A stretch of DNA of 64,000 nucleotides, taken from assembly GCA_951406725.2 (NCBI GenBank), contig OX597823.1:32178001-32242000 (forward strand), in the 5' to 3' direction. Within the stretch, counting starts at the first letter, position 1; every line of letters starts with the position of its first letter. Both the position numbers and the translations under genes were made by a program. This document shows, piece after piece, positions 3,737 to 56,651 of this stretch. This DNA comes from Octopus vulgaris (lineage: Eukaryota). The notes below the pieces were generated by a model that did not search any database, was not told the origin of the DNA, and saw nothing but the letters and a program-made list of their open reading frames with translations.

Positions 3737-4096
3737 AATTATTATTTAACAATTACAGTGTGAAAGGTGTTAATAAGCCATTTAAAAACACACAAAAACC
3801 GCTAGATTCATTTCAACATTTAAAGTTAATTTGTCAAAATATTTTTGTTGCTTTGAGACTGCGACCTGTTCACTGACAAAATTCCAGCACGGAATTTTGT
3901 CGGTGAATAGGTCGCAGTCTCAAAGTGATGAAAATATTTTGGCAAATTAAATTTAAATGAAGTGAATCTAACGGTTTTTGTGTGTTTCTTAAATGGCTTA
4001 TAAACACCTTCCATGCTGCAATTGTTTTCGTTCCAACACATGATCTCAGATCAGGTCACTTCCTATGCAAGTACTTTTCCGTAATTATTATTTAAC
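3737..4096. mobile_element. Hairpin-plus-tail insertion: ~280 bp palindrome (3748-4026), ~56 bp tail, 14-bp flanking direct repeat
   Basis: Arms pair around loop agcac (3886-3890). aattattatttaac occurs at 3737-3750 and 4083-4096. Confidence 0.75.
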
Positions 4097-4969
4097 TTTT
4101 CTCAAATTATTAATTCATATAGGAGCAGGTGTGGCTGCATAGTAAGAAACTTGCTCCCTAACCACATGGTTTCAGGTTCAGGCCCACCATGTGGAACATT
4201 GAGTAGTGTCTTCTATTATAGCCCAGGGCTTACCAAAGCCTTGTGAGTTAGTAGACAGAAACTGAAAGAAGCCCATCATATATATCATCATCATCATCTA
4301 GCGTCGATGTTCCTTGCTGGCATGGGTTGGACAGTTTGACTTGAATCTGATGAGTCAAACATTTGCATCATGCTCCAATGTCTGTTATGGCCTGGTGCTG
4401 TATGGCTGGATGCCCTTCCTAATGCCAACAACTTTACAGTGTGCAATGAATACCTTTTTCATGCCACCAGTACTGTTGAGGTCACCATATAAAAAAAAAC
4501 CATGGGGGAGATGTGTGTACACGTGCATGTCTCTGTGCATTAGTCTCCTTGTTTTGACATCGCATAATTGTTGTAAGCATATCACTGGTATGCTAGTGGT
4601 GTCTTTCATTTTCAGTTTTCCATGGAAATATGTCTGGTCATGGAAAGATATTACCTTGCCTGCAAACAGGCAAAGGTTCATGACAAGAAGGGCATACAGT
4701 CATAGAAAACTCACCCCTCTAGGTTCTGTTAAGCAGATGAGATATCAACCTTTATTTGTCTGGTCAAATCTTATTAACCTTTATTTGTCTGGTCAAATCT
4801 TTCCATACATCTACAGAAAACAAAATGAAATGAACCCTTTGCATTCTTACCCTTTGTGATAAAGAATTGTTCTGTGATTGAAGGGGCCTATTATAAATTT
4901 TATATATTTTAATTGTTAAAGGTTAATGGTTTTGTTTCACTGCAGTATCATTGTTTATTCTCTCTCCAG

Positions 4970-5143
4970 GTGCCGTAGCCCATGTTCCTCTTTCTGATGG
5001 CCCATTTGATAATACAGATGTGTCATTAATCACAGGAAAACTACGAACATTAGGTCAAAGTGATAATCAACCAGAACCATCAGACACCATCATTGCCAGA
5101 CCAGAAGCACTTTCTGTTACCACAGTGAAAGCCAAAGATGCAG
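4970..5143 (+). CDS. DPH2: DPH2 penultimate coding exon (174 nt, phase 1-1)
   Basis: Boundaries tctctccag|GT and GCAG|gtttgt. Encodes (G)AVAHVPLSDGPFDNTDVSLITGKLR..., including the DVSLITG motif of the DPH2 C-terminal region. Phases match both neighbours. Confidence 0.9.
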
Positions 5144-5299
5144 GTTTGTTGTTATTTTTTTCTGGAGTAGTTAAATGCATCTCTTTAGATAAGTAGAGGC
5201 TTTAAGAGCATGTGTGTAGTTCTGGTTTAAAGCCTAGAATTTAGCTCTGGTTTGCGGTCCAGGGTCTAGCATTAGAATTGTTTGTATTGACATTGTTGA

Positions 5300-6405
5300 G
5301 TTCTAAACATGTAGATATTGTCGAATCATTCAACTACTATATGCTGATGACTGTGCTCTTATAATAGAATCGGAGAAGAAATTCCAGGTATGGAAGCAAA
5401 ACTTGGACTCAAAGAACCTTGAAGTTAACCTGACAAAGACCAAAAGTTGTCGTTAGCAAGAAAGCTCCTAAAACTCTCTTTCTGTCAAGTAAATGGCCCT
5501 GCCTAATGTATAGGAAAAGTATTGAATGAAATTCTAGTCATTGTACCCAATGCAGGCTAATGGCACGTAAGTGGTGGAATCACAGGTATATGAACAGAAA
5601 AAGTCGTCTTCATGTGTGGCAGATGCACAGGAACAGTAAACACTAAGGGCACACAGGACTTAGACTCTCTCAAATGCCCAGGAGGCTCCCTTACAGTTGT
5701 AGATAGTTTCTGTCACCTAGTTGACCAAATTGGCAGTGGTGCAGGATGTTCTGAAAGTATTGTTGCTAGAATAAGAATAGGATGGAAAAAGTTCAGAGAG
5801 CTATCACCCCTGTTGGCAACAAAAGGACTCTCTCAGAGTGAAAGATAGACTATATGATGCTTGTGTATAAATGGCTATACTTCAAGATAGTGAGATATGG
5901 GCTCTGAATGAAGATGACATGCATGAACTAGAGAGAAAGAACAAGTGGACATACTTTCAAGGTATGAGAATATAAATAGGGTGGTAGAGTATTGCCCAGG
6001 GTACATGAGCAGGGAGTCCATATTAATGTAGGCAGGGCAGGGAGACAGGATTGTACTGCAGGTGTGAGGAAATATATTAAGAGAAAAGTTGAGCATAAGA
6101 GGAATCAGATGTAGAATGTAAGAGAGAAGACTATATTGGTTTGGACATGTGATGTGTATGAATGAAGATGGCATGTGCAAAAAGATTCGAGCGAGGTCAT
6201 TGCCAGTACCGCCTGACTCGCCCTGTGCCGGTGGCACGTAAAAAGCACCCACTACACTCTCGGAGTGGTTGGTGTTAGGAAGGGCATCCAGCTGTAGAAA
6301 CTGCCAGATCAAGATGGAGCCTGGTGCAGCCATCTGGTTCGCCAGCCCTCAGTCAAAATCGTTCAACCTATGCTAGCATGGAAAGTGGACGTTAAACGAT
6401 GATGA
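5300..6405 (+). mobile_element. Decayed RTE-type LINE (RT C-terminal half plus family C tail)
   Basis: YADD-like 'tatgctgatgac', VVDSFCHLVDQIGSGAGCSESIVARIRIGWKKFREL, LYWFGHV. Ends in the family C tail '...ggacgttaaacgatgatgat'. Confidence 0.75.
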
Positions 6406-54998: not shown

Positions 54999-55081
54999 CT
55001 TATTTATATATATATATATATATATATATATATATATATATATATATATACACATATAATCATATATATATATATACACAT

Positions 55082-55900
55082 ATAATCATAGCAATAATTC
55101 TAGGATGGAATTTATAAATATTTAATACACCACTATGTACTAGAAAATTACAATTTTTAAATCTGTCAACGAGAGATATTCAGCAACAGTACTTTGGAGT
55201 AAAATTTGTTTGCCATCATGACATGGCAGTCCTGGTTTAGGACGAATGTTGCTGTAATTTAGCCCCAGGAGACATTGTCTCCAGCTGGCTATATGACACG
55301 ATCTGTGTCCTTATGTTTTCGAACAAGGGAATCTAGCACTCCCACTCAGCTCAAAACAATATCTGTGTATTGCGATGTCTCCTGGAGCTAAATTACAGCA
55401 ACATTCACCCGTGTTATGTCAGCAAACAATCTTCACTACATCGCTATGTATTTTTCCATAAATCACATGATTTTGACATCAGAGTCAGTATCTTTGGGAT
55501 CTTGGGATTGGTACAGCATAGTCCGTATTATGTGTAAGCATGTGGTTGATCATCATCATAGGTTCATTTCATCAGGCGATAATTATTGGATGAATCACAG
55601 AGGGATGTTCATCCCTTCCTGCCAATATGAAGGCCAATCTGACTATATAGCCAGATTAGCCTTCATATTGGCAGGAAGGGCTAAACATCCCTCTGTGATT
55701 CATCCAATAATTATTGCCTGATGAAATGAACCTATGATGATGATCAACCACATGCTCACACATAATAAGGGCTATGCTGTACTGATCTACTGATCCCAAG
55801 GACACGGACTCTGGTGTTAAAATCATGTGCTTTGTGAAAACTTACATAGTGATGTATTAAATATTTGTAAATTTCATCCCAGAATTATTGTTATTGTTAT
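55082..55900. mobile_element. Large palindromic element (loopless 420-bp core 55437-55856) with a nested hairpin element in its left arm
   Basis: Centre ctatatag at 55643-55650. The outer arm 55082-55139 mirrors 55843-55900. Confidence 0.8.
55126..55450. mobile_element. Second copy of the 21.6 kb hairpin-plus-tail family, with 14-bp direct repeat
   Basis: ggcagtcctggtttaggacgaatgttgctgtaatttagccccaggagac is shared with 21611-21660. tacaccactatgta (55126-55139) and tacatcgctatgta (55437-55450) flank it. Confidence 0.8.
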
Positions 55901-56057
55901 ATTTATCCTACATTATATCGGTATGACCATGATGCAACCCTAAAAAACTGACTCACTGGTCAGTATCATTAGACAGTAGCCAGCATAATGATATAAGAGC
56001 TTTATTTGCATACCCTTAACGTTACCTTTAGTGAATTTGAAAGATATACATATCTAA

Positions 56058-56651
56058 AAGCAAAAATGCTTGTTCTAAAGTCTCTCTAAGAGATCAATGT
56101 AATAGTTGTAGTAACAAGTAATGTTTGTAGCCACTTCAACATGGCTGTTTGTTCGAACAGACTTTACTGTGATTTTTTAACCCCAAGAGGACATCTCATC
56201 TAGCTGGTTAATGATGCATCTGATATATTGCGAGTAGGGGAGCGAACCCCTACCACCTTCTAGCGACAGGACCAGCATACCAGCCTGGTTTGGGGCTATT
56301 TCTGCCTCTCTTCAATACTGGACACCTCGTCTGCTTGAGATGGTAGTAGTTTGCCTCTGCTTGCAATATATATGATTTCAAGCAACACAGTCACTGATTT
56401 TGCAACAAGCAAAAATGCTACTTCTAAAGTCTTTATAAGGGATCAATGCAGTAGTTGTACTATCAAGTAATGTTTGTAGCCACTTCAACATGGCTGTCCA
56501 TTTGAAGGGTTCACTCCCCTGCTTGCAATATATCAGATGCAGCTGTGCATCATTAACCAGCTACAGAAGATATCCTCTTGTGGATTAAAAAAAATCGCAG
56601 GAAAGTCCATTCGAATGGACAGCCATATTGTAGTGGCTTTGAACATTACTT
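56058..56651. mobile_element. Composite element with both direct and inverted terminal repeats
   Basis: About 56058-56155 is repeated directly at about 56408-56505. About 56115-56250 is inverted at about 56508-56651. Confidence 0.65.

What the first reader, a model, noticed from the sequence alone, without database searches (positions are those of the whole stretch)
3737..56651. Several unrelated sequence families share one insertion architecture: long hairpin, one-sided tail, 10-14 bp direct repeat
Seen at 3737-4096 (14-bp direct repeat), 13834-14300 (10 bp), 21570-21912 (13 bp) and 55126-55450 (14 bp). Probably also 6430-6571, 49030-49219 and 55082-55980, where no clear direct repeat was found. 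Unlike MITEs, the symmetry is broken by a 30-60 bp tail. The direct repeat on the tail-less side overlaps or resembles the arm end, suggesting microhomology-primed second-strand synthesis. A genuine PLE GIY-YIG remnant is at 40.8-41.25 kb. Inference: one mechanism (PLE-type reverse transcription with fold-back) is spreading many non-coding families and seeding long dsRNA hairpins in introns.
Basis: partly seen in the sequence, partly recalled or inferred. Interest (0 to 1): 0.72.

Follow-up and report, generated by a model that had tools for sequence, protein, structure and literature searches.

The report
Twin-primed Penelope hairpin insertions
These hairpin-plus-tail inserts are real and have the already published shape of Penelope-like jumping-gene insertions, and their ends suggest each was likely made when both cut DNA strands started copying the element's RNA at two different fixed points, not by one copy folding back on itself.

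Summary
Real, but a known architecture. The four direct repeats are at the stated places, and five families (A-E) each have a fixed tail end plus a second arm ending at a family-specific inner site. C and D are 3' ends (pLTRs) of coding Penelope-like elements (PLEs); B and E are related ~350-nt hammerhead units like non-LTR retrozymes; A has no identified partner. Inverted copy plus one-sided tail plus target duplication is the published PLE signature. In family B the two arms truncate independently (the tail-less arm reaches further 5' in 60 of 108), microhomology lies at both ends, and 51 of 54 two-armed copies picked without regard to the tail have exactly one tail. Duplications (mostly 12-13 bp, often inside RAC...GTY) accompany hairpins (53 of 79), not single arms (1 of 25). 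Best reading: twin priming from both nicks, one at each of two RNA start sites. Corrections: families are not all unrelated or non-coding, D's tail is ~140 nt, only A and E are shown intronic. This scan has noted the same architecture and twin-priming reading on other DNA, here and in other genomes.

The parts
3737..4096 (+). Family A insertion: 14-bp TSD, inverted arm 3748-3885 ending at -58, sense arm 3885-4084 with ~58-nt tail; 207-nt unit with a fixed 5' end, no hammerhead seen; in a DPH2 intron
6431..6571 (-). Family E insertion in (TA)n: tail end at 6431, second arm ends at -47; family unit ~340 nt with type I hammerhead motif, homologous to B; in a DPH2 intron
13834..14300 (+). Family C insertion: inverted pLTR pair of a coding PLE, ~27-nt tail, 10-bp TSD (1 mismatch); hammerhead motif at 13936 (- arm); tRNA-like A/B boxes at the centre
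17945..18186 (-). Single-armed, tail-less family C copy ending at the inner start site
21570..21912 (+). Family B insertion: 13-bp TSD preceded by AAC and followed by GTC, inverted arm from 21583, sense arm 21724-21900 with ~57-nt tail; 353-nt hammerhead unit
55126..55450 (-). Family B insertion nested in the left arm of D: 14-bp TSD (2 mismatches), tail end at 55141, second arm 55373-55440 with an internal deletion
55080..56045 (+). Family D insertion in (TA)n: inverted 3'UTR/pLTR pair of a second coding PLE, ~140-nt tail (55903-56045); its right arm shows the empty site of the nested B copy
56116..56651 (.). Diverged relative of B/E in tandem plus inverted arrangement; not analysed genome-wide
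49030..49219 (.). AT-rich 149-bp palindrome (49071-49219); no other copy returned, membership unknown
41062..41255 (+). Decayed C-terminal endonuclease remnant of a third PLE family (relatives read YIGQTG...EHL.DI); not the parent of A-E
42090..42250 (+). pLTR of the remnant's family; a second copy at 56660-56845 in opposite orientation

Best explanation
Each hairpin is a truncated insertion of a Penelope-like retrotransposon RNA (or of a small hammerhead RNA that likely borrows its enzyme), likely made in one event in which both ends of a staggered DNA cut prime reverse transcription, one at the tail end of the RNA and one at a second fixed site 27-140 nt inside. Steps: (1) SHOWN: the target is duplicated, mostly 12-13 bp, and in family B often lies inside RAC...GTY. 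INFERRED: a dimeric GIY-YIG endonuclease cuts each strand just 5' of GTY, leaving two 12-13-nt 3' overhangs. (2) SHOWN: both element ends overlap the target by about twice the permuted expectation. INFERRED: each 3' overhang pairs with 1-5 nt of RNA to set its start register. (3) SHOWN: nearly all two-armed copies have one arm ending at each site. INFERRED: the two enzyme subunits sit at two different start sites, probably on one RNA (multimeric or circular for B). (4) SHOWN: the arms stop at independent 5' points and usually overlap by 1-10 nt at the centre. INFERRED: the two cDNA 3' ends anneal there and are filled in, giving a head-to-head palindrome with a one-sided tail. (5) SHOWN: single-armed B copies lack duplications. 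INFERRED: they are hairpins that lost an arm or events where the second end was repaired with a deletion. Several PLE lineages share the mechanism; it is not one enzyme spreading all families.
For: One tail each: B 51 of 54 canonical two-armed copies among 78 insertions picked on an inner motif (binomial p 1.5e-12 against the 50% ceiling of independent choice); C 30 of 35 among 68; A 7 of 8 two-armed among 19 picked on the 5' end. The inner site is also a free 3' end of single-armed copies (B 8, C 17), matching the two RT start sites that bound the tail in vitro (PMC11167929), where the protein also cuts and extends both strands and is predicted to be a dimer. TSD score >=9 in 53 of 79 hairpins versus 1 of 25 single or tandem arms, swapped-flank null 1% of 400; 36 of 51 versus 2 of 18 in the inner-motif sample. 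RAC directly before the TSD in 25 of 80 (2.3 expected), GTY at the TSD end in 8-14 of 80 per offset; spacer 12-13 in 11 of 15 sites with both. Motif-anchored microhomology 1.74 (tail) and 1.45 (inner) versus 0.70 and 0.72 permuted, 0 of 5000 permutations reaching either, n=31 each. Arm 5' ends uncorrelated (rho 0.08), tail-less arm further 5' in 60 of 108, tailed arm in 30, arms longer than one unit in 14 and 22; centre overlap 1-10 nt in 70 of 108. C sits directly behind a GIY-YIG C-terminus and its tail reads in frame into the ORF in L473; D sits behind a GIY-YIG domain.
Against: No autonomous partner found for A, B or E; A shows no hammerhead. 'One RNA' is weakly supported: only 26 of ~330-390 rare variants are shared between arms (null 7.8) and 18 of 100 hairpins disagree at the one non-CpG subfamily site; sharing could also come from later arm-to-arm conversion or from same-period templates. 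28 of 81 TSD-bearing B sites were needed to have a motif-free reading (43 of 80 lack RAC within the allowed offsets), and the RAC motif is not enriched in C (2 of 19). 36 of 117 one-tail B hairpins have no TSD above threshold. C has 4 tail-less/tail-less and 1 tail/tail pairs and 33 of 68 single arms. Centre overlaps come from BLAST alignment ends, which can overrun. [quoted passage not shown] 8 pairs among 108 B hairpins share a centre within 3 nt, one of them probably a segmental duplicate.
Confidence: 0.75

Rival explanations
1. Fold-back (first reader; close to the self-priming proposal of PMC3846280): one cDNA is primed at the tail, snaps back and copies itself, and the copy ends by microhomology at the second nick.
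For: Microhomology at the tail-less end is real; 18 of 108 hairpins have arms ending within 15 nt of each other and 30 have the tailed arm longer, both compatible with fold-back; arms share more rare variants than random pairs. PMC3846280 infers self-priming from junction palindromes.
Against: In 60 of 108 hairpins the tail-less arm holds sequence the tailed arm lacks, up to more than a full unit; the tail-less arm ends at a fixed site that is also a free 3' end of single arms; microhomology is equal at the tail.
Confidence: 0.08
2. Twin priming on two separate RNA molecules or two enzyme complexes, with the one-each rule coming from an asymmetric enzyme dimer rather than from a shared template.
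For: All end and centre statistics fit equally; 18 of 100 hairpins have discordant arms at the non-CpG subfamily site and most rare variants are unshared.
Against: Concordance at that site is 82 of 100 versus 59 expected and rare shared variants are 3.4 times the null.
Confidence: 0.3
3. The tailed hairpin is itself the mobile unit (asymmetric MITE-like or fold-back DNA element, or retrotransposition of transcripts of existing hairpins).
For: Fixed outer ends and a narrow TSD length; 8 pairs of B hairpins share a centre within 3 nt.
Against: Centres differ in the great majority of 108 copies and arm lengths are uncorrelated; tandem and single-armed forms of the same unit exist; C and D arms run on into PLE coding sequence, and long RT-bearing insertions show the same inverted ends.
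Confidence: 0.05
4. Two independent insertions or later recombination at a pre-existing repeat created the hairpins.
For: Some loci are nested (B in D) and A, D, E favour (TA)n, where repeats pre-exist.
Against: A single TSD encloses both arms; 12 of 12 testable empty sites have one copy; independent events would not give 51 of 54 one-tail pairs.
Confidence: 0.03

Closest known systems
Insertion units of endonuclease-bearing Penelope-like elements (Pen2a_Av of Adineta vaga, PMC3846280, passages read; Fig. 2 legend and text of PMC8557442, passages and section 15 read)
   Same: Inverted 5'-truncated pLTR head to head, tail on one side only, 8-10 bp TSD in the rotifer cases, ORF start inside pLTR and tail, microsatellite bias in some clades.
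   Different: Here most copies are short stubs without ORF; tails are 47-60 nt (A, B, E) and ~140 nt (D) against the published 30-40; TSD mostly 12-13 bp. The papers call the tail optional; here it is on exactly one arm in nearly all two-armed copies.
Poseidon element PAc of Anolis in vitro (PMC11167929, main text parts 1-2 read; supplements not read)
   Same: Two RT start sites bounding the tail; both strands cut and extended; predicted dimer; short 3-nt cleavage motif on each strand (ATT there, GTY inferred here for B).
   Different: That text does not discuss inverted insertions, TSDs or microhomology and finds no strand difference in start site.
Metazoan non-LTR retrozymes (PMC7229834, passages read; bioRxiv 10.64898/2026.07.22.740005, parts 1-3 of 5 read)
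   Same: Families B and E: 330-353-nt unit, partial tandems with exact period, type I hammerhead motif with palindromic stem III, TSD longer than 4 bp, proposed PLE dependence.
   Different: B occurs mainly as two-armed inverted insertions with fixed ends; 'inverted' has 0 occurrences in PMC7229834. Circular RNA and cleavage untested here.
LINE-1 twin priming
   Same: Both target nicks prime cDNA on element RNA; the two cDNAs join by microhomology; one TSD.
   Different: In L1 the second primer starts at a variable inner point 5' of where the first cDNA stops, giving an inversion with little duplication; here it starts at a fixed site near the 3' end, so both arms copy the same sequence and form a palindrome.
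MITEs and fold-back DNA transposons (established knowledge)
   Same: Short, non-coding, hairpin-forming, high copy, flanked by a duplication.
   Different: No symmetric TIRs, no fixed internal structure, hammerhead motifs and PLE ORF links.

Membership tests
EN+ Penelope-like element insertion | Adjoins or derives from an RT + GIY-YIG ORF | tested here: met
   C: GIY-YIG-type C-terminus directly upstream in L079 and 8 other loci, same family's RT gives RVT_1 E 1.5e-4 and RVT_1/HTH_animal atlas clusters 0.96. D: upstream frame gives GIY-YIG atlas clusters 0.95 and Pfam GIY-YIG E 0.005, below cutoff.
EN+ Penelope-like element insertion | ORF link for families A, B, E | tested here: inconclusive
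   No coding neighbour seen in the loci held; no dedicated genome-wide partner search beyond.
EN+ Penelope-like element insertion | pLTR and tail contain the ORF start | tested here: met
   C only: pLTR plus tail read in frame into a long N-terminal frame in L473; L467 has the same continuation.
EN+ Penelope-like element insertion | Inverted 5'-truncated copy, head to head, tail on one side | tested here: met
   A 7 of 30, C 24 of 40, D 26 of 59, E 16 of 22, B 93 of 118 tail-selected copies are two-armed; inner ends cluster at -56..-61, -22..-35, -138..-146, -47..-56, -50..-64.
EN+ Penelope-like element insertion | Tail of 30-40 bp | tested here: not met
   About 27-33 in C, 47-60 in A, B, E, ~140 in D; the length is family-specific.
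EN+ Penelope-like element insertion | Target-site duplication created on insertion | tested here: met
   81 of 117 one-tail B hairpins, 46 of them 12-13 bp; empty paralogous sites single-copy in 12 of 12; C 19 of 30.
EN+ Penelope-like element insertion | Hammerhead motif in the pLTR | tested here: inconclusive
   By motif and stems: present in B (71 of 94 copies with intact core), E and C; variant core in D; none in A. Rfam listed no hammerhead among 66 window matches or 150 of 189 shown locus matches.
EN+ Penelope-like element insertion | Clade (Penelope/Poseidon or Hydra for C, Nematis-like for D, Neptune-like for the 41-kb remnant) | not tested
   Labels recalled from motif appearance only; no tree against reference elements.
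Non-LTR retrozyme (B, E) | Tandem monomer of 150-450 bp | tested here: met
   B period 353 in L002, L008, L021, L027; arms pass one unit in 14 and 22 of 108. E continues into a next unit in L174.
Non-LTR retrozyme (B, E) | Type I hammerhead in each unit | tested here: met
   Core, stems I and II and palindromic stem III keep pairing with different sequence in B and E; core no better conserved than flanks among inserted copies (97% vs 96%).
Non-LTR retrozyme (B, E) | Expressed, self-cleaves, forms circular RNA | not testable with these tools
   No raw RNA reads available; only 6-7 of 108 arms end within 5 nt of the predicted cut while 37 and 52 cross it.
MITE / fold-back DNA transposon | Symmetric terminal inverted repeats and fixed internal structure | tested here: not met
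   Ends differ by a fixed tail; centres vary freely.

The most novel reading that the evidence does not exclude
The asymmetric palindrome is the normal primary product of PLE integration: one enzyme dimer cuts a pseudo-palindromic RAC-N12/13-GTY site, and its two subunits obligately prime from the two overhangs at two different fixed sites of a single (for B, circular or multimeric) RNA, each using 1-5 nt of primer pairing; single-armed copies are damaged or half-finished products. This would give a concrete mechanism for the inverted-pLTR-plus-tail structure that the PLE literature lists as unexplained, and would show that hammerhead retrozymes are inserted by the PLE route.
Probability: 0.4. 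Interest if true: 0.65.

Novelty: new member of a known kind. Interest (0 to 1): 0.42.

Why it matters
The shape is published, so the finding is not a new class of element. Its value is mechanistic: PMC8557442 (section 15) names the formation of tandem/inverted PLE structures as an open question, and the existing in vitro system (PMC11167929) can test the predictions made here directly: cut geometry, one start site per strand, primer pairing of a few bases, and same-template origin of both arms. Practically, annotators will mislabel these stubs as MITEs or pre-miRNA hairpins; with at least 505 exact B tail motifs and 2752 exact C motifs in this genome they are a large potential source of intramolecular dsRNA, whose editing was not tested.

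Tried and rejected
Rfam scans gave only microsatellite and generic-hairpin miRNA matches below gathering scores, no hammerhead among those listed. Pfam missed the PLE endonuclease fragments except a sub-cutoff hit for L130; the 41-kb remnant's identity rests on its relatives' motif and weak blastp to C and D fragments (E 0.001-0.03 in a 3-sequence set). A pattern search for a hammerhead upstream of family A's fixed 5' end returned 19 hits with unrelated upstream sequence. Search for copies of 49010-49150 returned only itself. Orthologous empty sites: two lays of contigs from 5 coded runs were swamped by family copies and listed no joint across either insertion; one contig of run X8 covers 21873-22270, so that tail junction is shared; no verdict. 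No RNA holder listed. ARAGORN calls no tRNA in 8 family C loci. TSD analysis for A, D, E is mostly uninformative because of (TA)n targets. Dropped rows: 8 duplicate loci of 130 and 4 without a tail end; 4 duplicates of 82; L287 (mis-anchored in a trinucleotide repeat); 9 hairpins with more than two aligned pieces before the arm-length count; 2 duplicates of 70. Literature: 'twin priming' + 'Penelope' + 'retrotranspos' gave 3 papers, none on PLE mechanism by title and abstract start; a 6-term search from 2022 on gave 10, only PMC11167929 on topic; 'Octopus' + 'Penelope' + 'RNA editing' + 'inverted repeat' gave 2, listing only. PMC12910113 passages held nothing on mechanism. [quoted passage not shown]
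Full report
Setting. The window lies in a 2.8-Gb genome of 227 contigs; its repeats look like those of octopus (recalled, and so labelled in earlier scan notes; not tested). A DPH2-like gene on the + strand has exons at 2207-2914 (PF01866, E 2e-53), ~4971-5143 and ~10256-10365; a RIMC1-like exon lies on the - strand at 11180-11434. 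So A (3737) and E (6430) are intronic; the genic status of the other loci was not determined.

Observation. The four direct repeats and the inverted arms are at the stated places. I searched the genome with each element. A, B, C, D and E each have many copies (1926, 2805, 1934, 889 and 1506 first-look candidates, 40 scored each) with a sharp common end at the tail. The 49-kb palindrome found only itself. D extends to 56045, so its tail is ~140 nt.

What the families are. C: upstream of the unit, L079 and other loci encode an endonuclease C-terminus; the same family's RT frame matches RVT_1 and HTH_animal clusters; C follows the RT-bearing ORF in many of 20 RT-selected loci, several of which carry an inverted C copy on the other side; in L473 the pLTR and tail read in frame into the ORF. 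D: its upstream frame matches GIY-YIG clusters at 0.95. B: a 353-nt unit found in partial tandems with exact period, with a type I hammerhead motif whose stem III is palindromic; E has the same layout with different but still pairing stems and is 67% like B over 159 nt. A is a 207-nt unit with a fixed 5' end and no hammerhead seen. The endonuclease remnant at 41062-41255 belongs to yet another family with its own pLTR. Exact motif counts give lower bounds on abundance: B tail 505, B arm 1222, C 2752, with 0 control hits each.

Shared architecture. In tail-selected copies the second arm ends at a family-specific site: A -56 to -61 (5 of 7 two-armed), C -22 to -35 (20 of 24), D -138 to -146 (15 of 26), E -47 to -56 (15 of 16), B -38 to -66 (79 of 93). 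The same inner site is the free 3' end of tail-less single arms. This is the published PLE signature: inverted 5'-truncated pLTR, tail on one side, TSD (PMC3846280; PMC8557442), and the tail is the stretch between two RT start sites (PMC11167929).

Are the direct repeats made by insertion? Of 118 tail-ended B copies, 53 of 79 inner-site hairpins but 1 of 25 single or tandem arms have a TSD scoring 9 or more; swapped flanks give 1%. Pooled, 81 of 117 one-tail hairpins have one, 46 of them 12-13 bp. Twelve rebuilt empty sites had a paralogous repeat copy spanning them; all show the sequence once (33 of 37 hits for one site, all hits for the others). In the window, the right arm of D shows once the 14-mer that flanks the nested B copy twice.

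One tail each. To avoid selecting on the tail I took the first 88 of 1222 hits to an inner B motif, 78 distinct insertions: 51 tail + inner, 2 tail + tail, 1 inner + inner, 9 single with tail, 8 single inner, 7 other. Independent choice of start site allows at most half mixed pairs; 51 of 54 has p 1.5e-12. Hairpins have two chances of being sampled, which inflates them over single arms but not one pair class over another. C, from the first 70 of 2752 hits (68 distinct): 30 mixed, 4 inner + inner, 1 tail + tail, 33 single. A, picked on its 5' end: 7 of 8 two-armed are mixed.

Target and priming. Among 80 B sites, RAC lies directly before the TSD in 25 (2.3 expected) and GTY starts at the TSD end minus 0-2 in 8, 14 and 10; the spacer is 12-13 in 11 of 15 sites with both. 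With the cut fixed by the motif, the element end matches the target over 1.74 nt at the tail and 1.45 nt at the inner site, against 0.70 and 0.72 when end positions are permuted among targets (0 of 5000, n = 31 each); without the motif assumption the overlaps are 1.95 and 1.61 against 0.83 and 0.73. Microhomology is therefore two-sided. C shows TSDs of modal length 12 but no RAC enrichment (2 of 19; GTY 5 of 19), so the motif may be specific to B's enzyme.

Fold-back or two primers? In 108 two-piece B hairpins the tail-less arm reaches more than 15 nt further 5' than the tailed arm in 60, the reverse holds in 30, and the two truncation points are uncorrelated (rho 0.08); 14 and 22 arms exceed one unit. 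A copy of the first cDNA cannot hold sequence that cDNA lacks, and a copy of the tail-less arm cannot supply the tail. The centres overlap by 1-10 nt in 70 of 108 (3 or more in 40% versus 6% simulated; alignment ends may overrun), and only 8 pairs share a centre. Arms share 26 rare variants against 7.8 for shuffled pairs and agree at the one non-CpG subfamily site in 82 of 100 against 59: suggestive of a common template but also compatible with conversion or contemporaneous templates.

Mechanism. Shown: staggered duplication, two fixed start sites used one per arm, two-sided microhomology, independent truncations joined at short overlaps, tandem-length templates for B. Inferred: a dimeric PLE protein cutting 5' of GTY on each strand, both overhangs priming, annealing and fill-in of the two cDNAs, loss of one arm in single copies. 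PMC11167929 supplies the parts (both strands cut and extended, two start sites, predicted dimer) but does not mention inverted products, duplications or microhomology; PMC3846280 proposed self-priming; PMC8557442 leaves the question open. My searches found no paper stating twin priming for PLEs, but key subscription reviews and supplements were not seen.

Earlier scan notes. I had set down the twin-priming reading before the first look-up. The scan has recorded the same architecture many times in this genome and the same twin-priming reading here and in other genomes; these are unreviewed AI notes and not independent support.

Verdict. Real and far beyond chance; a new set of members of a known kind of insertion. 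Interest is moderate, resting on the testable geometry.

Noticed in passing
window 14040-14135 and 18090-18185; loci L068, L079, L086, L088: The family C pLTR carries tRNA-like A-box and B-box motifs followed by a variable (AAT)n run, upstream of the ORF start and hammerhead; possibly an internal polymerase III promoter in a coding PLE. ARAGORN calls no tRNA.
   Followed up: partly
window 3885-4084; loci L031-L060, L357-L375: Family A has a fixed 5' end at -206 in most copies, no hammerhead seen, and full-length single arms sometimes keep a 12-15-bp TSD; looks like a short SINE-like client of a PLE enzyme with unknown promoter.
   Followed up: partly
window 40851-41061: A 68-bp, 100% identical inverted copy of the left flank sits at the 5' junction of the decayed PLE remnant; perfect identity beside a decayed element suggests a recent template switch or conversion.
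   Followed up: partly
window 55126-55450: The nested B copy landed at the predicted hammerhead cleavage region of the D arm, and the opposite D arm serves as a built-in empty site.
   Followed up: yes
family D, about -235 from the tail end (e.g. L107): Hammerhead-like motif with a non-standard core (CUGAUGU instead of CUGAUGA) and palindromic stem III.
   Followed up: no
window 56116-56651: Diverged B/E relative in tandem plus inverted arrangement, with family J pLTR abutting at 56660.
   Followed up: partly
window 22051-22115: 65-bp GC-richer palindrome of unknown family; conserved in a contig of run X8.
   Followed up: no
window 58252-59684: Two ~420-bp copies of a common dispersed repeat in opposite orientation, 600 bp apart, 85% identical; a potential long dsRNA of a different origin.
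   Followed up: no
window 2207-10365 and 11180-11434: DPH2-like gene (+) and RIMC1-like exon (-) lie tail to tail.
   Followed up: partly
loci L268 and L269: Identical B insertion structure about 196 kb apart in opposite orientation; probably a segmental duplication.
   Followed up: no
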